Assembly (NCBI RefSeq): GCF_009914755.1
Contig: NC_060937.1
From: the human T2T-CHM13v2.0 reference genome, Homo sapiens
Strand: one strand, 5' to 3'
Length of the DNA stretch: 64,000 nucleotides
Shown here: positions 3,490 to 32,611 of the stretch, in pieces
Numbering within the stretch: the stretch's first letter is position 1
Layout: every line of letters begins with the position of its first letter
Notes under the pieces: model-generated
The model's input: the letters and a program-made list of their open reading frames with translations, nothing else
Databases searched by the model: none
Told to the model about the DNA's origin: nothing
Position numbers and translations under genes: made by a program

Positions 3490-4155
3490 TTTAAGAACTT
3501 GAGCATAATCTTCTCATTAATCCTGTCCTGTTTGTCTGTTATTAACAGGCCACTGTACAATGTATTCTGCTGCAAAACTCCACCAGGCATGACTAATTCA
3601 GATAATTAATTTGCTAGAACATTAACACCATCAAATGAGCCTGCTAAACCGGTAAATTTAAAGTAAATTAAACTTAATTTGCAGGTTATTGCAATTAAGT
3701 CTGCCTTGTCTTTCTGAGGGATTTCAACATCCTCAGTATTTAAGAGGCAATCATAATGCATGCAAGTGGGCGGGCTTTTTGGCTAATTAACACAAGAGTC
3801 TAATCTGCTTTTCAATTAGGGTGGATGTTTATAATGTGCTGGTGACAGTGTTGCGATTCAGTGCAGCATAACAGGAGTGCGTGGCATAATTATAGCTGAA
3901 AAGAAAAGCTCATGCCGGGCCTTTTTAGGGGTTAATGAGACATTGGCAGCTTCCAGCTGAGGAGATCGAGCCAGTTTAGTGTAGCTTCAAGAGGAAACCA
4001 CCCATAGGGGTTTCCTTTGAAGTGTCAAAAGGTCCCCTTGTTCTGGGTGGCTTATGTTTCATTTGTCTGAGTGGCATATCAAAAATTGATGAGCTGCCAG
4101 CAGCAGTCCCTATGACATTAATTCACCAATTGTGTTTCTAATAGTTTCATCCTTA
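3490..4155. promoter_or_regulatory. Candidate conserved non-coding element / developmental enhancer
   Basis: Repeat-free, complex sequence dense in TAAT/ATTA homeodomain cores (ctaattc, ataattaatt, cttaattt, caattaag, ctaattaac, caattagg, cattaatt), TGACAG (MEIS-type) and CAGCTG. Conservation is inferred, not measured. Confidence 0.5.
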
Positions 4156-4684
4156 AATAAATTTGGATGATGAGAATGGTAAGGAGAGTCAAGGTTCTGA
4201 AAACAATGAGCAGAGCCAGGCTGTTGCATGGTTTTTATACAACACAGACAAATGTAGCAGCAGTAAATGTTAAAGGCATGGCTGGCCTACTACACCCTGG
4301 GTTATTAGCTAAGGGAAGACAAAGATGTATTGTGCCTGTGCCCTCTGCCAAACAACAGTCACTCAAAACAGTGATAAAAATGTGGCATTCACTGGCACTT
4401 AGCTTAAACTCTTAACTATACAGGGGAGGGATCTTAAGCTGGGGCTTCAGAAGAGGAAGTTTCTATGAATCTGAGACATAAACCTCCTTGGAAACACTCT
4501 TACTAAAGCCGCCTATACATCAGAGCTGAGGCTAAGGGGAAATAGCCAAATAGTAACACAATAAGATTGCACTTACATTTAGAGTATGGAAATTCACATT
4601 ATCTCCTCATGTCTACAGTAAACACTAAACCAAGGTGCTTTGAGGCTCAGCTTGAAACTGAGTTGTTGAGGTATACTTGCATAG

Positions 4685-5066
<382 letters not shown>

Positions 5067-5589
5067 AATTTCTGGTTTTATATGTTCTTTGGTTATATAA
5101 TGAGGAAAAGAGAATTTACAAATAGACAGTTGTTTCCAGGATGAATATCATACATGTCATGCCTAAAATTTATCTGAGAACATACATCTGGTACATACAT
5201 TGGAATGACTAGCATCATATTTTCAAAATATTTAGGTGAGCAAGTGGAAAGTAAAGACATCAAAACCTTGTGCAAAATAAAAGTTCTTACCACCACAGTG
5301 CTACATGTTTTCTTTTAAGAATGCCAAATTATGCATGATGATTATAAAGAGCGTTGCAAAGATGGCCCTTCTTTTGGCCTTCATGTAACATGCATGAAGT
5401 AAATTACAGCTGGGTAAAACCCCCAGCCTTTCACAGAGACATGAATGGAGCAGTCAAATAAATTATTCCAGGTACTTGCAGAAAGATTAATCTACCCAAA
5501 TTAATTGTAAAATCTCCTAAGCTAGTATTGTCACATAGACATAGCCAAAGAAAGTCATGATGTATTGCAATGGATGTTGGGGAATAAAT

Positions 5590-6790: not shown

Positions 6791-7421
6791 TTTGAATGTG
6801 GGGATTCAGGCAGGGGGCTGGGGGATAGGGACCTGTGTGAAATAGTCATTTGAAGGCCAAAAGCCACCAATAATAGATTAGGTTCAATTTGTTGTTTGAT
6901 TGCAAATGTGTTTATTGTGAGGTAATGCACACTCATTAAAGAAAAAGGAAGAGGAAAATACAGAAAAGTGTAAGAAAACAATTACATTTAACCTCCAAAA
7001 TAATAGAGTGGTCTAACAATGAGGGGAACAAGTGAGTTTATTTCTCTATAGAAATCCCAGAATGAGACTGAAAAGAAGTCTCTGTCCAGTAGAGACCTAT
7101 ATCTAGGATGCATTCAGAAAAAGTTCCTTTGTGTTGGGTCTTTGGTCCAAGTTACTGTAGACGTGTGCTTTGCGCTAATCTCCATCATCAGCAGCATTTT
7201 TTTAAGTGGGTTCTGCCTTAGTGGTCTATTATAAAATTTGTCATACTCACTCTTACTTTCCTTAAATTCCAAATCCTCTTACAATTGTACTAAATATTGT
7301 GTAAATTATATAGTGGCTTTAATCAGTTTTCAAGAAAGAAATTGTTACATATATAATGGGATGTTTTAGGGAATTTATTTTTTTCTGCTAAATTTCTGGC
7401 ATGGTTACAATAGGGGGAACA

Positions 7422-25100: not shown

Positions 25101-25307
25101 CTAGCTCATGCTACACATATGGCCAGCCTGGCTATTCTTTCTCTCATCTTGGCCCTGACAACAGTTGGGAAATTATGGTCCCCTTTTCTGTTTTGCATAT
25201 TCATAGAAAATATCTGTATTCTAACCTGCCCAGCTACAGTTACTTCCTCTGTAACTCCTTCCTATCCCTATCATTGTAAATTAAGTTAATTCAGCAAAGA
25301 AGTTAAC

Positions 25308-25649
25308 AGGAAGGAAGAGAGAGAGAGAAATGAGAGAGACTGAGAGAGGGAGACATGGATGAAGGAGACGGAGGAAGAAAGAGAAAGAAAGAAGGAAAGA
25401 GGAAAAAGGAAACAGGAAGGAAGGAAGGAAGGAATTGGAAGGGGAAGGGGAAGGGGAGAGAAGGGAAGGGAGGGGAGGGGAGGGGAGGGAAGGAAGGGAG
25501 GAAGGGAAGGAGGGAGGGAGAGAGAGAAAGAGAAAGAAAGGAAAAGAAAGAAAGGAAGGAAGAAGGAAAGAAAGAGAAAGAAAGAAAAAGAAAGAAAGAG
25601 AAAGGAAGGAAAGAAAAAGAAGAAAGAAGGAAGGAAAGAAAGAAAGAAA

Positions 25650-25685
<36 letters not shown>

Positions 25686-25751
25686 GAAAAGAAAAGAAAG
25701 AAAGAAAAGAAAGAAAGAAAGAAAGAAAAAGAAAGAAGGAAAAGAAAAAGA

Positions 25752-25755
<4 letters not shown>
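25308..25755 (+). repeat. Compound purine microsatellite (GA/GGAA/GGGA/GAAA)n
   Basis: No pyrimidine from 25437 to 25755. This is the source of the K/E/R-rich ORFs. Confidence 0.95.
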
Positions 25756-26140
<385 letters not shown>

Positions 26141-26561
26141 CTATAAACTAGCAACTAGGGATTAAAATTTTAGCTACCTCCTTTTTTAACACCTGAATCA
26201 CTAGGGGTACAGGATTTCATTTAACTTGGTCTGTTTTGTGAAATGCAGAAAGATGATTTTGGAAAAAACTAATATAAGCATTTTTTTAAAGTGTCTAGAC
26301 TGCTACTTAAAAAGTAAAGGGTAACAGTTAAATGGGGCATGAGCTCCTGAAACTGTCTTTGATTTAAATAAAGTGAAGAGCAACAAGAAATGGGTTTTAG
26401 GTTCAATCTGTGGCCTGGGGAAAAAAAAAGTTGGGGGGGGGGGGGGGGGAGTGAATTATGGCCAAACTATCAATGGGCACCAATCTGTCTCACTTTTTCA
26501 GACCATTTGAAATGGTCATAGGTCATAAAATAAATTATTGTTATTTTTAAAAGGGAATTAA

Positions 26562-26746
26562 CGCCAGGCACAGTGGCTCGTGCCTGTAATTCCAGCAATT
26601 TGAGAGGCCAAGGCACGCAGATCACCTGAGATCAGGAGTTTGAGACCAGTCTGGCCAACATGGTGAAACCCTGTCTCTACTAAAAATACAAAAATTTATC
26701 ATGGTGGCACAATCCCAGCTACTCGGGAGGCTGAGGCAGGAGAATC
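26562..26746 (+). mobile_element. 3'-truncated AluS fused to the ERV LTR
   Basis: Left arm plus partial right arm ending at ggagaatc; no tail. Confidence 0.9.
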
Positions 26747-26749
26747 TGC

Positions 26750-27247
26750 TGAGGCTGATTGGATGTTTGATAGGCAGGCACACACAGCACAGTTTTAACA
26801 AGCAATTTATCCCCTACTGTGCAGGTCCCTCCCCAGGTTCCTTATAGGCTGAGTACTATGAGGTTACAATTTTCCCGGACTTCGCCTATTGATTGTTGGG
26901 TAGGGTCTTTAGATGTTTTTTTCAGGGTTGTTTTGCTGTATTTTGCTGCAGCCCACAATACATTGCAATCCTAGTTAACTAGGGGGCTCTTCAAGTATTT
27001 GACTTATGACCTAAGTAGCTGGGCAGGCTGATAAGATCAGACAAAGCAAGCTATTTTGCAAACTAGTAAACTTTCATTTTAAACTAAACTTTTTTGGTTT
27101 GGGTGAGGGCAACTAAGGCTGACAAGCAGGCTTTGGCTATCCAAGCAGGAGCCTAGTATATTCTGTTTTTTCTGGTAGTTTGCTGACCAAAGCTGACTGA
27201 AGGCACTTTGTCTTGGAAATGGACCATTGTATATATTATTTCCTTCA
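26750..27247 (-). mobile_element. 3' LTR (R/U5 end deleted; LTR71/LTR10-class)
   Basis: Begins TGAAGGAAATAAT on the minus strand directly after the PPT aaaaagacaagggaat; about 88% identical by eye to 31850-32331. Confidence 0.88.
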
Positions 27248-27314
27248 ATTCCCTTGTCTTTTTATTTTGACCCCTATTGGTCCCATTTCCACATTTATTT
27301 TTGTGCCCTTTGGT

Positions 27315-28640
27315 TCTTACATTTATTAGGCACTCCTTTAGGGACATCTATTGATGTTAACATAAATGTTGGGGTTAAAAGAATTTGTTAGATTTCTCCA
27401 GCTTTGGTAGCCATGTGGATTTTTGGGGATCTTATGGAATGCCAAGGTGAATGGAATGGCCAATTGAACTAAGGCACAAGTCCCTGTCCAGTTGGACAGT
27501 AACAGGTCACAGAGGCTCCTCTTCCCACAATACCACCAGACATTAGCCCGGGGTATATGAAGAACCAAGTAGTTGCCTTTGTTTGACTCACCAGCAACGT
27601 TTAAAATGTGGATACAAGTTGAGAGTTTTCCCACGGGCCTATTGAACTTTGCTCCCTGCCTAAAGAGGCAAGAGGAGTGGTTCATATTCTCTGTGGAGAA
27701 CAAGGGGATTGCTTTAGGATCTGACCTTCGCAAGGTGGGAAAGAGCAATAATAGACTTTTGCAGGTTTTATTTCCCCATGCATCCCTGTCCTGTTATAGA
27801 GCCTACATGCAACATATTCCTTTGGGATGGGTATCACATTCTAGGGGAAATAGAACTACCTGTGTCTGAGTCTGCCCAGCAGAGCATGCATAACAGTCAC
27901 TCTTATCAAGAGCTAGTATAGAAAATTTGACCCATTTAATCCAGGCATTTATATCCCCATATCCAGTCTTAATTTCTAAAGTTTCCCTCAAGTTAGTTAC
28001 CTTAATTATTTTCACTTTCTTAGGGTCATTGTATGGTGGGTTAAAGAAGTAGTGGGACTGGGAGTTACAGTAATCCTGGTGTGCTTAGGGTGGAGTTGGT
28101 AACCAGTCTAAAAGCTAACTGTCCCACTGGAGGAATTCCTTCCTGAGATATCTATTCCTAATACATACCTCCAAGGTTCCTGGTCTAGAGTAGCTGGGTT
28201 GTTTACAGTAATTAATATAGGATTGCATTCTAAATTTCTATAGTTAAGTGCCATGGGGCCCTCATATTTGATTCTTTAAGGGTTTGTTTTTGGAAGAATG
28301 ACTCACCCAGCCTCAATATTGTGTGGTCCACCAGACCTGATTCCAGCTAGCACAGGGCTTTTCTGAGAGGGTCAAATAACGGTCTGTTTTAGGATGTAGA
28401 TATTTGTTTGCTTGTGACAACTGCCTTTAGTTCTCTAAATTTCCACAAGGTAAGACTTGGCAGGCATTAAATTTTATAGTTTGGAGCAGGTGGAGGTCTT
28501 AGCTGTGTTGACTATTGGTTTGATTCGATATTCCCTACTTTTCACCCCTAATACTGGGCCCTATCCAGTACTTAGGTCTCCTTTCACACCTTGTGTTAGG
28601 ATTCATCCTAAGCATATTTACCCCCAGTGACATAGCCTGC
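27315..28640 (-). pseudogene. HERV env remnant (SU part; TM deleted)
   Basis: ORF 27338-27748 VWWYCG...NWTGTCALVQLAIPFTLAF and ORF 27803-28015 LEIKTGYGDINAWIKWVK...CYAC are HERV-I env motifs. The 5' boundary is approximate. Confidence 0.8.
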
Positions 28641-28689
28641 TCATAGCATCCTCTTAGGTTTTCCTTAGAGTTAGCATTAAGGGTTCCTT

Positions 28690-29973
28690 ACCTGATATAT
28701 ACACTCTCCATTTACCCTTCTCCCTTCCTTCTGGGGGTTCTTTTACCAGTCTCTTGACCCGAGTGTCATGTGTCCACCCCCGGTTCAGCTGTTCGTACGG
28801 CCATTTCAGTGATTAGGAGCACTTGATGGGGACCTTCCCAGCTTGGGTGGAGCTTATCACCAGGCTGGAAATGGTAAACTTGAACTTAAGAGGCGGGGTT
28901 TGAGTTAGAAGTTCTTTTAACCTAAGGGATGACAGGGTGGAGGATATGGCCAGTATATTATCTCTTCAAAATTGCTTTTTGGTTTTCATAGTAGGAAGGT
29001 CAATAGTCCTGCCTAAATACGGGAATGCTTTGAAATGGCCTTAACCCAGGAGGTCTTCCTTCGGTAGTCTGTTTTCTAACTACCTTTTTGTTTATTCTCT
29101 GGCAGGTTACTCAATCCCCGCACACTTGTTTAGCAAGGGTATAAATCTCTATACACTCATAGTTCTTGACTATTGCATCACACATGGCTTGGGGACCCCA
29201 ATGACTTCCCTTATGCAGTATGGACATTAGTTCTCTTATTATGGGTTTGCTTATTATTTTTCTTCCATTAGGGAGCACCCATCTCCTGTCCTTAGTTTGA
29301 GTGGCCCCTACCTTGCCCAGCTTTTCCTCCTCCTCTTTAGAAAATTGGGGTTTTAATACCACCTTAGGGATGTTTGGGATTAGGTTAAACAATTTAACTT
29401 TTTCCTCCAGGGAGGCTTGCTTAGCAGCTTTATCCACAAGCCTGTTTCCTACAGCTTCTACAGTGTTTCCTTTTTGATGGCCATTTACATGGAACTATGG
29501 CTATCTCTGCTGGAAGCAAGAGGCTTTTTAAAAACTTGTTTGACCAGTTTCCCATGTACCAATTCTTTCCACCTGCTATTTATTAGGCCCTGCTTTGTCC
29601 AGATTTTTCCAAAGGTGTGTATTATTCCATAGGCATATTTGGAATTAGTATATGTAGTGACTTCTTGGCCTTCTAGGAGCTTTAGGGCCTGGTTAAGAGC
29701 ATATAATTTACAGGTTTGGGCTGACCAGTTATTGGGTAATTTATCTTTTTTACATAAGGATTGTTTGTTTTTATTAACAACAGCATAATCATTGTGTTTT
29801 TTTTACCATCTATCACTTGGGATGACCCATCCACAAACTGCCTGATTCCATTATGTAGTGGAGTTTCTTTAAGGTTTGATCTAACTTTAGTTTGATATTC
29901 TATGATATTTTAAGTTATGGTTTGGTGCCTTTTTATTCTCTCCTTTCCATAAGAAACTGGCTGGATTTAGGTT
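28690..29973 (-). pseudogene. HERV pol remnant: tether, RNase H, integrase Zn-finger and C-terminal GPY/F region
   Basis: NLNPASFL; FVDGSS; DKAAKQA; HKGSHWG...AKQVC (HHCC); WEGPHQVLLITE...WTH. Confidence 0.85.
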
Positions 29974-30459
29974 AGGAACCTTCCCAGGGCCCACTGACCC
30001 CAGGAGGAATTTGGGGAGGCAAGGGACTGACCAGCTGGACTCCCAGGATGCCTTTAGCCCAGCTCTGCTGGGTCTGACTCTGGGCCAAGAACTGCTGTTT
30101 TGAAGAGCTGCCAGCCTGTGGCACCTTCCCTGATGGGCACTCTTATCAGCAAAGGCATCCCTGGCTCCGCCCTCCCTTCCTCTTTCTTTGCTTCGAAGGC
30201 ACCATCCATCTCTCTGGAAGGCCAAGAGCTGCACTGTTTCTATTCCATGCCACCCCTGCTGGTGACCTGGCAACTGCAAAGGGTCTCTGGTTTGTCCAGC
30301 TCTGGGAGGGGACTAAGTGGCTTTTCCTCCTCTTCAGCTGCAAGGATCCTACCCCGGCCCAGCCCGGCTCTGGGATACAGAGCTTCCATATATCCCACCT
30401 CAAAGCATCTTGGCAGACTTCTCCCCAGCAGATCTCTCTCTACTTCAGGGATTGCAAAC

Positions 30460-31365
30460 TGGGAATTTCTGCTCAGCTGGCAAGATTCCTTGCCCGGGAG
30501 GATGCTATCTCTCCCAATTGGTCATGGCTGCCCTTCTAATCATTCCCCTCTCTTCCCCAGTAAACAAAATGTTCATGATTGACATTATCTTAGCCGAAGT
30601 ATAAAAACTGAGTCCTAAAAATTGATCTAGCTGCTTTGCTAATCTGAGAGAATTTCAAGAGTGGCCTCATTTCTTTTTTAAAATTCCTAACCTCAGTACT
30701 TGTTAGAGGTGCACTCACAAATCCAACCCCTCATGGGGACTTCTCTAAGAGGGTACCTGTTAGATATCTGCTGTTTAGAAGCAATAGGGAAATTCTTAAT
30801 GTTCTTCTTACATTGCTCTAATTATTTCCTCAATTTTGGATAAGGATTTAGGGAAGCATTGGGTTTAGCTCCTTCACAAGCCCCGTATTTCTCTTCCTTT
30901 GGCCTTCTTGTTGCCCCTTGATCTTCCTGTCCCCTACTTTCTGAGATGTATGGGGGCAAGCGTGTTAGGGGATTCCAGGGCTTTTCACTGGGCGAAGGCG
31001 CTTTACTATGCTCTTTTCTTCCTTTTTAAGGGGGAACATGGGAGTTAATCCACCAATCCAACAAAGCATAACTCATCTCCTCTTATGAGAATGGGGTTTT
31101 ATTATTCACATAGAGAATTAAAGCTTGGCATACCTCATCTGAGCCAAACTTAGGCTGAAAGACTGAAGGCTGACAAATGGGCTCTTTGGGCCAGATAAAA
31201 CGCAATACTTTAATATCTTTTGCTTTTCCTTGTCCCTGGTTTGAGGATTATCCCTTCAAACCTGCAACATTTCTCCCCAGTGGACTATCTGGGAGAATGT
31301 CACAAGGGGTCTTTTTAGTTCCCTCTTTCTTTTGTTCCCTAGACCTAGAATTTCTGGTTCCCATT
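30460..31365 (-). pseudogene. HERV gag remnant (N-terminal to mid-capsid)
   Basis: Minus-strand translation includes QLDQFLG...NILFTGEERGMIRRAAMTNWER*HPPGQGILPAEQKFP. Confidence 0.8.
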
Positions 31366-31735
31366 TTCAGTTAGTCTCTGTATCTGAGCTTTACCCTCTG
31401 TACTTAACTCCCTTACTGGAGATTTCTTGCACACCTCTTTGTATTCAACCTCCCTGACTGGCGGTTTCTTGCACATCCTGAGTCCTCCAAAAATGTCCAA
31501 CCACCAAGGCAGTACATACAGTCCAATTTTCCTACCTTGGCTAGTGCATGAGGTTGCCTGGTTACTGCAGTGCCTGCTTTTCTCCCTGTGTCACTTCCGT
31601 TGTCTCCTGAATAACAGTTTCGGGTTTCTCTATGGCTTTTGTGGGGAGCCGGGACTTCCAGAGAGAGCAGGCCACATAAACCAAGTGGGATGCATCTCCC
31701 CTCTCAGTCGGAGCTTCACTCCACGCAGGCACAGA

Positions 31736-31755
31736 GATCCCCGTGTGGGCCATCG
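31736..31755 (-). other. Primer-binding site complementary to tRNA-Ile
   Basis: Minus strand cgatggcccacacggggatc versus the tRNA-Ile(AAU) PBS TGGTGGCCCGTACGGGGATC, 3 nt downstream of the 5' LTR end (...tttcaca). Confidence 0.8.
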
Positions 31756-31758
31756 GGT

Positions 31759-32331
31759 TGTGAAAAACAAACTCACCCGTCCAAACTCAAAAATGGACTC
31801 AGACCAGAGAACAGCGAAAGTGAGACTTTAATGATGGTCTTGCAAGGTTGGGTGTTTAGTAGCACACGCAGCACAGTTTTAACAAGCAATTTATCCCCTA
31901 CTGCTCAGGTCCCTCCCCCAGTTCCTTATAGGCTGACTACTATCGGGTTACAATTTTCCCGGACATGCCTATTGTTGGTTGGGTAGGGGCTTCAGATGGT
32001 TTTCTGGGGGAATGTCTTGCTGCATTTTGTTGCAGCCCACAATGCATTACAATCCTAGTTAGCTCAGGGGCTCTTCAAGTATTTGACTTATGACCTAAGT
32101 AGCTGGGCAAGCTGATAAGAACAGACAAAGGGAGCTATTTTGCAGGCTGATAAACTTTCATTTTAGACTAAACTTCTTTGGTTCAGGTGAGGGCAACTAA
32201 GGCTGACAAGCAGGCATTGGCTATCCAAGCAGGGCCTAGTATATCCTGTTTTCTCTGACTAGTTTGCTGACCTAAGCCAATTTAAGGCATTTTGTCTTGG
32301 AAACGGAGCACTGTATGTATTATTTCCTTCA
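31759..32331 (-). mobile_element. 5' LTR (complete, TG...CA)
   Basis: Minus strand TGAAGG...TTTCACA; TATA-like tataag near 31925-31930; ATTAAA at 31828-31833. Confidence 0.9.
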
Positions 32332-32611
32332 CTTAGTCACAGATAATATTTAATGTAAACCAGTGAAAGACTATGACTTTGTGTGCAGATGATCTAAAAG
32401 CTTTGACAGTTTTGAATTGAGATTCCCTTGGCAGAGAATTTTATTGAAGGGTTATGCCTGCTGAGGTGAACATAAAGGTCTGGAAGCCAGAAGTCATAAC
32501 ATCTGAAGGGACAACTTTCTATTTTTACCAATAAGTCATATCTATATTATTTTGGTACCTACCACTTAAGAGGCAACTAAAAGCTACCAATATATAGATA
32601 AAAAGACAGAA

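What the first reader, a model, noticed from the sequence alone, without database searches (positions are those of the whole stretch)
29974..30459. Foreign ~490-bp GC-rich segment inside the HERV-I provirus: candidate retroviral capture (transduction) of host sequence
Seen: on the viral strand, gag homology runs to ...HPPGQGILPAEQKFP (30460) and pol homology resumes abruptly at the tether motif NLNPASFL (29973). The sequence between is 57-60% GC in two sampled lines (a flanking pol line is about 30%). It has no recognisable RT or NC motifs, no poly(A) and no TSD. Established: this interval should hold kilobases of 3'gag, pro and RT, and replacing viral genes with cellular RNA by template switching is how acutely transforming retroviruses arise. 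Inference: a host transcript fragment was captured. Its 3' part is open and in frame with the pol tether (ORF 29887-30279). Caveat: the first ~45 nt translate as IPEVERDLLGR, reminiscent of the protease C-terminal motif, so that edge may be viral.
Basis: partly seen in the sequence, partly recalled or inferred. Interest (0 to 1): 0.8.

Follow-up and report, generated by a model that had tools for sequence, protein, structure and literature searches.

The report
Provirus carrying captured VASH1 3'UTR piece

Summary
Window 29957-30462 (minus strand, 55-58% GC) is not viral. It is the 3' 505 nt of a 1.1-kb block found at the same place in 9 HERV-I/HERVIP-like proviruses. These lack protease and RT (family "A").

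The only non-ERV copy in the genome lies on chr14, 1.14-2.27 kb downstream of the VASH1 stop codon. It is on the VASH1 coding strand and in viral sense. It has unique flanks and no LTR, gag or pol within 4.4 kb.

A sister family "B" (5 loci) has the same backbone. It carries about 250 nt of RT connection domain where A has the VASH1 block. Both crossover points can therefore be read:
- 5' junction: a 3-nt overlap inside a 9/11 purine match.
- 3' junction: a perfect 9-nt TCCAGCCAG shared by virus and VASH1.

The 5' junction is identical in 8 of 8 copies that keep it. The 3' junction is identical in 7 of 7.

It is a private 1.4-kb deletion of this copy. "IPEVERDLLGR" is VASH1-derived, not protease. 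The block is most likely a non-coding passenger.

I found no paper linking VASH1 and this ERV. Dfam/Repbase could not be consulted.

The parts
31757..32334 (-). 5' LTR of the provirus (about 575 nt; boundaries approximate)
   Evidence: Direct repeat with 26757-27250. It ends just upstream of the PBS-like motif.
31737..31752 (-). Primer-binding-site-like motif immediately after the 5' LTR
   Evidence: Pattern match on the viral strand. tRNA specificity was not tested.
30463..31736 (-). Leader and gag remnant (MA to mid capsid), broken by stops
   Evidence: Collinear with gag of sister copies at 79-82% identity. L015 gag matches Pfam Gag_p30 with E=9.8e-12.
30460..30462 (-). Scar of a private deletion of about 1.4 kb. 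It removed the 3' part of gag, the purine-rich block B0 and the first ~630 nt of the VASH1-derived block.
   Evidence: Five other copies carry 1.34-1.43 kb (more where Alus are inserted) between the bases that are adjacent here. There is imperfect microhomology at the breakpoints.
29957..30462 (-). VASH1 3'UTR-derived block: the 3' 505 nt of the 1.1-kb captured sequence. This is the finding.
   Evidence: 87% identical to chr14:70990099-70990601, positions 630-1132 of the 1132-nt block. 55-58% GC.
29957..29965 (-). 3' crossover zone: 9-nt TCCAGCCAG shared by the VASH1 3'UTR and the viral pol tether
   Evidence: Three-way alignment of A copies, B copies and chr14.
30106..30112 (-). 7-nt match to the miR-22-3p seed, inherited from the VASH1 3'UTR
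   Evidence: It is the only such 7-mer between the VASH1 stop and the first poly(A) signal, and it lies in the block. The seed was recalled; the mature miRNA string occurs in 79 papers, two of the five listed having miR-22 in the title (listing only).
29024..29956 (-). pol remnant: RT/RNase H tether (LNPASFL), RNase H, N-terminal part of integrase
   Evidence: Pfam RNase_H E=9.3e-06 at about 29533-29790. A homologous B-family copy aligns to MoMLV RT residues 394-587 with E=8.8e-29.
27251..29023 (-). Integrase C-terminal part and env remnant. A second private deletion of about 0.44 kb at 29023/29024 removed the integrase core.
   Evidence: Collinearity with the chrX and chr12b copies, which carry about 440 nt more at this point. 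The rve domain of L015 lies in that missing piece.
26757..27250 (-). 3' LTR, truncated by about 85 nt at its 3' end where it abuts an Alu
   Evidence: K2P distance to the 5' LTR is 0.123.

Best explanation
A defective gammaretrovirus-like ERV of the HERV-I/HERVIP kind had already lost protease and most of RT. During reverse transcription it acquired 1.1 kb of the 3'UTR of the host VASH1 mRNA. Reverse transcriptase, copying the viral RNA from 3' to 5', switched at the 9-nt TCCAGCCAG in the pol tether onto a co-packaged or read-through VASH1 transcript. It copied 1.1 kb of 3'UTR. It then switched back into a purine-rich stretch at the end of gag, through a 3-nt overlap inside a 9/11 match.

The chimeric genome was packaged and integrated with proteins supplied by helper viruses. 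It reached at least nine germ-line loci about 30-40 million years ago. The window holds one of these copies. This copy later lost 1.4 kb (3' gag plus the 5' half of the VASH1 block) and the integrase core. Today the block is most likely an inert non-coding passenger.

Shown: the source locus, its orientation, the shared junctions, the microhomology and the multiple independent copies.

Inferred: the RNA-level template-switch mechanism, the dependence on a helper virus, and that the backbone was already defective when the capture happened.
For: 1. The 486-nt segment has full-length 82-87% matches at 7 other places. Six of these are proviruses with the same LTR, gag and pol as the window. The seventh (chr14) has only the block.

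2. With the 1132-nt chr14 block as query, all 12 candidates were scored. They are the query itself, 9 ERV loci (4 full length, 2 split by insertions, 3 partial including the window), and one 74-nt 76% match that I treat as noise. With 1 kb of flank added on each side, the flanks match nothing else in the genome.

3. The chr14 locus is VASH1. Pfam Vasohibin E=3.9e-55. The PDB match to Tubulinyl-Tyr carboxypeptidase 1 has E=1.1e-85, against 2.7e-51 for paralogue 2. The stop codon is at L011 3227-3229 and the block at 4369-5500, on the same strand. The first AATAAA/ATTAAA after the stop is at 7179.

4. Sister family B (5 loci) is collinear with A up to the 5' junction and again from the 3' junction. 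In between it has about 250 nt that read as RT connection domain running into RNase H (MoMLV RT 394-587, E=8.8e-29).

5. The junctions can be read in three-way alignments. The 5' junction is identical in 8 of 8 A copies that retain it. The 3' junction is identical in 7 of 7.

6. Alignments between copies stop at the LTR ends, and the copies lie on different chromosomes. They are therefore separate integrations, not duplications.

7. GC content around the block on chr14 is 48-61%, like the block and unlike the ERV.

8. LTR-LTR K2P distances are 0.123, 0.149 and 0.170 in the 3 proviruses measured. This falls in the 10-19% range given for HERVIP (Vargiu 2016, PMC4724089, passages read).

9. Patching of host RNA into retroviral recombination junctions through fortuitous microhomology is established (Telesnitsky and Wolin 2016, PMC4997597, passages read).
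Against: The tree of the block is a star. chr14 joins at the centre with a branch (0.066-0.085) equal to the median of the ERV copies, and no supported stem separates it from them. Phylogeny alone therefore does not give the direction of transfer.

The block lies in one exon, so the absence of introns cannot show that an RNA was the intermediate.

That the block is inside the annotated VASH1 3'UTR rests on three things: the lack of an earlier canonical poly(A) signal, an indirect miR-22-3p argument, and my recollection of a roughly 4-kb UTR. No annotation of that locus was available.

No TSD could be read for the window, chr2 or chr12b copies.

No non-primate VASH1 3'UTR could be examined. The presence of the block before the ERV existed is therefore not shown directly.
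Confidence: 0.85

Rival explanations
1. Reverse direction: the block arose in the virus from an unknown source, and a fragment of an A-type provirus or its cDNA was later inserted into the VASH1 3'UTR.
For: The star tree places chr14 like any other copy. 3'UTRs often hold TE fragments (general knowledge).
Against: The chr14 homology ends at both sides within 3-10 nt of the points where A stops resembling viral sister B. At both points chr14 shares microhomology with the B-type viral sequence. A random fragment of a 6-kb provirus would not begin and end exactly at the edges of the non-viral part. There is no LTR, gag or pol within 4.4 kb. Flank composition matches the block. No other source exists in the genome.
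Confidence: 0.05
2. The segment is ordinary viral sequence: a strongly diverged RT or protease region, or part of the normal HERV-I/HERVIP internal sequence.
For: It is present in every A copy at the same place, so a family consensus would include it.
Against: There is no Pfam RT, protease or NC match in any viral-strand frame. Parent-type copies carry a zinc knuckle and a protease motif after gag instead. Sister family B carries true RT connection sequence at this position. The block is 82-87% identical to unique host DNA beside VASH1. The 'protease-like' peptide is encoded in the chr14 locus too.
Confidence: 0.02
3. The acquisition happened at DNA level after integration (for example templated repair or gene conversion in one provirus), and the copies spread by segmental duplication rather than by retrotransposition.
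For: Microhomology junctions are also typical of DNA break repair (general knowledge). No TSD could be read.
Against: There are nine loci on seven chromosomes. Inter-copy alignments stop at the LTR ends. Each of the copies measured has its own diverged LTR pair. The star-like tree fits a burst of copying. A DNA-level origin in one expressed provirus followed by retrotransposition cannot be excluded, but it would still be a capture of host sequence.
Confidence: 0.05
4. Variant of the main reading: classical read-through transduction from a provirus once integrated in or just upstream of the VASH1 3'UTR, with only the 3' junction made by template switching.
For: This is the textbook route for oncogene capture (PMC4997597, passages read). 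The block is in sense orientation.
Against: No proviral or solo-LTR remnant lies within 4.4 kb upstream of the block in today's genome. The 5' junction lies inside gag rather than after a 3' LTR or splice donor, and it shows microhomology like the 3' one. This fits a double switch ('patch') equally well or better.
Confidence: 0.25

Closest known systems
Retroviral transduction of host sequences (acutely transforming retroviruses; 'patch repair' insertions of host RNA in MLV and HIV-1 vectors and isolates)
   Same: Viral genes are replaced by host sequence in sense orientation. Both junctions show microhomology. The genome is defective and spread by helper functions (mechanism as reviewed in PMC4997597).
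   Different: The captured piece is non-coding 3'UTR with no conserved ORF. The product became fixed in the germ line and reached at least 9 copies. Both the source and a pre-capture sister lineage are still readable.
Non-autonomous ERVs with a non-viral core (mouse ETn relative to MusD, VL30, chicken ART-CH; recalled, not checked here)
   Same: LTRs and parts of the helper's genome are kept, with coding capacity replaced by unrelated sequence. Amplification is in trans.
   Different: Here the origin of the non-viral core is identified to the base (VASH1 3'UTR). Gag, RNase H-IN and env remnants are retained.
Host gene capture in ERV relics of crocodilians (cited in Frith 2025, PMC11905727, introduction passage read)
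   Same: A captured host sequence preserved in endogenous proviral relics.
   Different: A different host clade and virus. I did not read the primary paper, so details cannot be compared.
HERVIP10F / HERVIP10FH (Repbase; LTR10F, LTR10A) and HERV-I
   Same: A class I, gamma-like ERV. LTR divergence of 12-17% falls within the 10-19% given for HERVIP. A Repbase table implies HERVIP10FH is about 5.15 kb (2,782 nt = 54%). This is close to my estimate of about 5.1 kb for the B-type internal region.
   Different: No Repbase or Dfam sequence was available, so the family name is unverified. If HERVIP10FH is the B type, the VASH1 block would be an unannotated insert in A copies. If it is the A type, part of the VASH1 3'UTR would be masked as ERV.
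L1 and SVA 3' transduction
   Same: Mobile-element copies carry a traceable piece of unique host DNA.
   Different: There the flanking DNA is carried by read-through and sits at the 3' end. Here the piece is internal, taken from an unlinked (or no longer linked) gene, and bounded by microhomology crossovers.

Membership tests
Retroviral transduction / host-sequence capture | Non-viral sequence replaces viral genes inside an LTR-bounded provirus | tested here: met
   LTRs found. No RT, PR or NC domain. The block sits between gag and the pol tether.
Retroviral transduction / host-sequence capture | An identifiable host source locus without viral flanks | tested here: met
   chr14:70989470-70990601 in VASH1 has unique flanks and no ERV homology within 4.4 kb.
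Retroviral transduction / host-sequence capture | Insert in the sense orientation of the host transcript | tested here: met
   The block matches the viral sense strand on the + strand of the locus, and the VASH1 exons read on the same strand.
Retroviral transduction / host-sequence capture | Processed (intron-less) host sequence, showing an RNA intermediate | tested here: inconclusive
   The block is contiguous in the genome and lies downstream of the stop codon in the last exon, so no intron could have been removed.
Retroviral transduction / host-sequence capture | Short homology at the virus-host crossovers | tested here: met
   5': a 3-nt overlap within a 9/11 match. 3': a 9-nt perfect match.
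Retroviral transduction / host-sequence capture | The same junctions in several independently integrated copies (the chimera replicated) | tested here: met
   5' junction in 8 of 8 copies and 3' junction in 7 of 7 copies that retain it. Flanks are not homologous.
Acutely transforming retrovirus (oncogene capture) | The captured sequence encodes a protein expressed from the virus | tested here: not met
   The block is 3'UTR. It has no Pfam match and no frame shared between copies.
HERV-I / HERVIP10 group (class I, gammaretrovirus-like) | Gamma-type gag and pol domains | tested here: met
   Gag_p30, RNase_H, rve and MLVIN_C in sister copies. RNase_H in the window. A B copy aligns to MoMLV RT.
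HERV-I / HERVIP10 group (class I, gammaretrovirus-like) | LTR10-type LTRs and similarity to the Repbase/Dfam internal consensus | not testable with these tools
No Dfam or Repbase library is on hand.

The most novel reading that the evidence does not exclude
This would be the first human ERV lineage in which a germ-line-fixed transduction of a named host mRNA can be read end to end: the source gene, both crossover points, and the pre-capture sister family. The captured VASH1 3'UTR piece may not have been a neutral passenger. It could have helped the defective genome, for example by restoring a packageable length or by adding RNA stability or regulatory elements such as the miR-22-3p site. That could explain why the chimera (at least 9 loci) did at least as well as its sister (at least 5). 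Transcripts of surviving copies could also still cross-talk with VASH1 regulation.
Probability: 0.15. Interest if true: 0.8.

Novelty: new member of a known kind. Interest (0 to 1): 0.6.

Why it matters
Capture of host sequence is the classical way retroviruses acquire oncogenes, but it is almost always seen in short-lived exogenous isolates. Here the event is preserved in the germ line with every participant still readable: the donor gene (VASH1 3'UTR), the recipient backbone (sister family B), both microhomology crossovers, and nine descendants.

This gives a natural, dated (about 30-40 My) example of template-switch 'patching' by a helper-dependent ERV.

It also has a practical side. Either part of the VASH1 3'UTR is at risk of being masked as ERV, or a 1.1-kb piece of these proviruses is unannotated. 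Reads from these nine loci can also cross-map to the VASH1 3'UTR at 80-87% identity.

Tried and rejected
- Rfam scan of the chr14 block and flanks gave only a sub-threshold match: SOX2OT_exon3, 21.5 bits against a gathering score of 70. I treat it as noise.
- ORF listing of the chr14 region shows many open frames on both strands, as expected for GC-rich DNA, and none with a family match.
- A phylogeny to polarise the transfer gave a star tree that is uninformative on direction.
- A TSD search at the window, chr2 and chr12b copies failed. The LTR ends are degraded or truncated and my boundaries come from BLAST edges.
- I looked for a host source of the purine-rich block B0 (about 450 nt between the capsid end and the VASH1 block, shared by A and B). 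Positions 390-861 of the query matched only A and B proviruses, so no source was found at that sensitivity. Low-complexity words are skipped by the tool.
- The miR-22-3p seed match is kept at the homologous place in only 3 of 7 ERV copies examined. This gives no sign of selection.
- Literature:
  - 'VASH1' with 'endogenous retrovirus' returned 7 papers, of which 6 were listed. None is relevant by title or abstract, and I opened one.
  - 'VASH1' with 'HERVIP10' returned 0 papers.
  - Two wider searches on ERV capture and transduction found nothing on a human case.
  - Flockerzi 2005 (HERV-K14, 'mobilization of other cellular sequences') is not held and was not read.
- No paper I read gives the length of the VASH1 3'UTR.
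- Earlier findings of this scan were not open to the session.

Full report
**The observation**

On the minus (viral) strand, window 30000-30499 has 55-58% GC in 200-nt windows. The proviral sequence on either side has 31-43%. The translation reads gag-like sequence up to ...HPPGQGILPAEQKFP at 30460 and ...NLNPASFL from 29973.

The provirus is bounded by LTRs at about 31757-32334 and 26757-27250. Across its three viral-strand frames Pfam finds only RNase_H, at about 29533-29790, E=9.3e-06.

**The segment is shared by a provirus family**

The window's assembly (human T2T, 24 contigs) can be searched. The 486-nt segment has full-length matches of 82-87% identity at seven other places (all 8 candidates scored). 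I fetched 10 kb around each and compared them with the window provirus.

- Six are proviruses of the same family with the same LTR, gag, pol and env: chr2:190.71M, chrX:75.52M, chr12:0.10M, chr6:29.83M, chr12:3.53M and chr6:43.22M.
- In these the segment runs on without a break into the RNase H region. The 3' junction is therefore a property of the family.
- Upstream, five of the six carry a further 1.34-1.43 kb between the bases that are adjacent in the window at 30460/30462. The amount is larger in chr6:43.22M, which holds Alus.
- In the chrX copy the upstream part lies 10.8 kb away, behind an insertion.

The breakpoints share an imperfect short homology. A second private deletion of about 0.44 kb at 29023/29024 removed the integrase core. 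That core is present in the chrX and chr12b copies and holds the rve domain of L015.

**The odd locus is VASH1**

The seventh place, chr14:70.99M, shares nothing with the provirus except the segment. Compared with a full copy, its homology is 1,132 nt long (L011 4369-5500 against L010 4410-5502, 82%), with no LTR, gag or pol in the 4.4 kb on either side.

- Searching the genome with this 1,132-nt block scored all 12 candidates. They were:
  - the query itself;
  - nine proviral loci: four full length, two split by insertions, and three partial (the window, chr11:31.07M and chr13:89.49M);
  - one 74-nt match at 76%, which I regard as noise.
- With about 1 kb of flank added on each side, the flanks match nothing else in the genome.
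- The same 10-kb locus encodes the C-terminal part of a vasohibin on the + strand: Pfam PF14822, E=3.9e-55, profile positions 118-245 of 245.
- That exon matches PDB chains named Tubulinyl-Tyr carboxypeptidase 1 at E=1.1e-85, against 2.7e-51 for paralogue 2. The gene is therefore VASH1.
- The last coding exon ends with a stop at L011 3227-3229. The block lies 1.14-2.27 kb downstream on the same strand. The first AATAAA or ATTAAA after the stop is at 7179.

The block therefore lies where the VASH1 3'UTR should be, in the sense orientation of both the gene and the virus. I recall a 3'UTR of about 4 kb for VASH1 but could not confirm it.

There is one indirect support. A paper reports a miR-22-3p site on the human VASH1 3'UTR (PMC5013028, passages read). 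The only 7-nt seed match between the stop and that poly(A) signal is at L011 5347, inside the block. The seed was recalled. The mature miRNA string occurs in 79 papers, two of the five listed having miR-22 in the title (listing only).

**What stood there before**

A search with the 3' gag region (40 of 297 candidates scored) and one with the RNase H region (40 of 55 scored) showed a larger ERV family with several deletion forms.

- **Sister family B.** Five loci form it: chr10:104.95M, chr9:147.51M, chr1:74.24M, chr8:127.12M and chr2:125.70M. They are collinear with the block-bearing copies (family A) up to L013 position 4376 and again from 5469. In between they have 239-260 nt unrelated to the block.
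- **What B carries.** These nucleotides read as the RT connection domain running in frame through LNPASFL into RNase H. The chr8 copy aligns to MoMLV RT residues 394-587 with E=8.8e-29.
- **Parent-type copies.** These continue after the capsid into a zinc knuckle and a protease motif.
- **Block B0.** A and B also share a purine-rich block of about 450 nt after the capsid end. The parent-type copies lack it. Its origin is unknown.

**The junctions**

Three-way alignments of A copies, B copies and chr14 show both crossovers.

- At the 5' side, A follows B through ...GAGGAAG and follows chr14 from AAGTGAGAGG.... The overlap is 3 nt, inside an 11-nt purine stretch where B and chr14 agree at 9 positions.
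- At the 3' side, A follows chr14 through TCCAGCCAG and follows B from the same nine bases on. This is window 29965-29957.
- The 5' junction is the same in 8 of 8 A copies that retain it. The 3' junction is the same in 7 of 7.

The ends of the chr14 homology thus coincide, within the microhomology, with the points where A stops being viral. This is what a recombination between a B-like genome and a VASH1-like sequence predicts. It would be an unreasonable coincidence if chr14 were merely a stray fragment of an A provirus. The GC content around the block on chr14 (48-61%) also matches the block and not the ERV.

**Direction, mechanism and age**

The tree of the block is a star. chr14 attaches at the centre with a branch of 0.066-0.085, the median of the ERV copies, and without a supported stem. 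This fits a capture followed quickly by a burst of integrations, but by itself it does not give direction. The direction rests on the junction argument.

The mechanism I favour is a double template switch by reverse transcriptase onto a co-packaged VASH1 mRNA. This kind of microhomology-guided 'patch' is described for MLV and HIV-1 (PMC4997597, passages read). Read-through transduction from a provirus once lying in VASH1 is a variant I cannot exclude, although no LTR remains near the block.

The chimera has no protease or RT, yet it sits at nine loci on seven chromosomes with non-homologous flanks. It must therefore have been mobilised by helper functions. This step is inferred.

LTR-LTR K2P distances are 0.123 (window), 0.149 (chr2) and 0.170 (chr12b) in the three proviruses measured. 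Vargiu et al. use a rough factor of 2.5 My per percent (PMC4724089, passages read). That gives about 31-42 My, inside the 30-40 My they give for HERVIP.

**What it does now**

Most likely nothing. There is no conserved frame: the chr2 copy has a stop in the window's ORF register, and chr14 reads differently. The miR-22-3p seed match survives at the homologous place in only 3 of 7 ERV copies.

**Comparison with what is known**

Host capture by retroviruses and non-autonomous ERVs with non-viral cores are both known kinds. A recent survey of human ERV relics mentions host gene capture in ERV relics only for crocodilians (PMC11905727, introduction passage read). My searches found no paper connecting VASH1 with this or any ERV and no human case in two wider searches. 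One possibly relevant paper (Flockerzi 2005) is not held.

Dfam and Repbase could not be consulted, so the family name (HERV-I, HERVIP10F or HERVIP10FH) is unverified. A Repbase-derived table implies about 5.15 kb for HERVIP10FH. This is close to my estimate for the B-type internal region, a weak hint that the named consensus is the pre-capture form.

**Verdict**

The donor is now named and both crossovers are read. It is a new, unusually complete example of a known process rather than a new kind of system.

Noticed in passing
window 29023-29024: A second private deletion of about 0.44 kb. The chrX and chr12b copies carry about 440 nt more here, and the integrase core (rve) domain of the chr12b copy lies in that piece.
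   Followed up: partly
L013 (reverse complement) 3930-4376; L010 3955-4410; absent from the window because of the 1.4-kb deletion: A purine-rich block 'B0' of about 450 nt follows the capsid end in families A and B. It is not in parent-type copies, which continue into a zinc knuckle and protease. No non-ERV source was found at the sensitivity used. It may be an expanded charged region of gag or a second foreign piece.
   Followed up: partly
chr10:104.95M, chr9:147.51M, chr1:74.24M, chr8:127.12M, chr2:125.70M (L022, L024, L025, L032, L026): Sister family B has the same backbone with a gag-to-RT-connection deletion and no VASH1 block. Its estimated internal length of about 5.1 kb is close to the length implied for Repbase HERVIP10FH.
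   Followed up: partly
window 30106-30112; L011 5347-5353: The only 7-nt miR-22-3p seed match between the VASH1 stop codon and the first poly(A) signal lies inside the captured block. It is kept in the window copy, and at the homologous place in 3 of 7 ERV copies examined.
   Followed up: partly
window 26521-26757: An Alu abuts the truncated end of the 3' LTR, and about 85 nt of the LTR are missing. This is why no target-site duplication can be read for this provirus.
   Followed up: partly
chrX:75504522-75505097 and chrX:75515879-75516451: The chrX copy of the VASH1 block is split by about 10.8 kb of inserted sequence, which I did not examine.
   Followed up: no
window 25300-25770: A long purine-rich (GA/GAAA-type) low-complexity tract lies just outside the provirus, between Alus. 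It gives long spurious ORFs on both strands.
   Followed up: no
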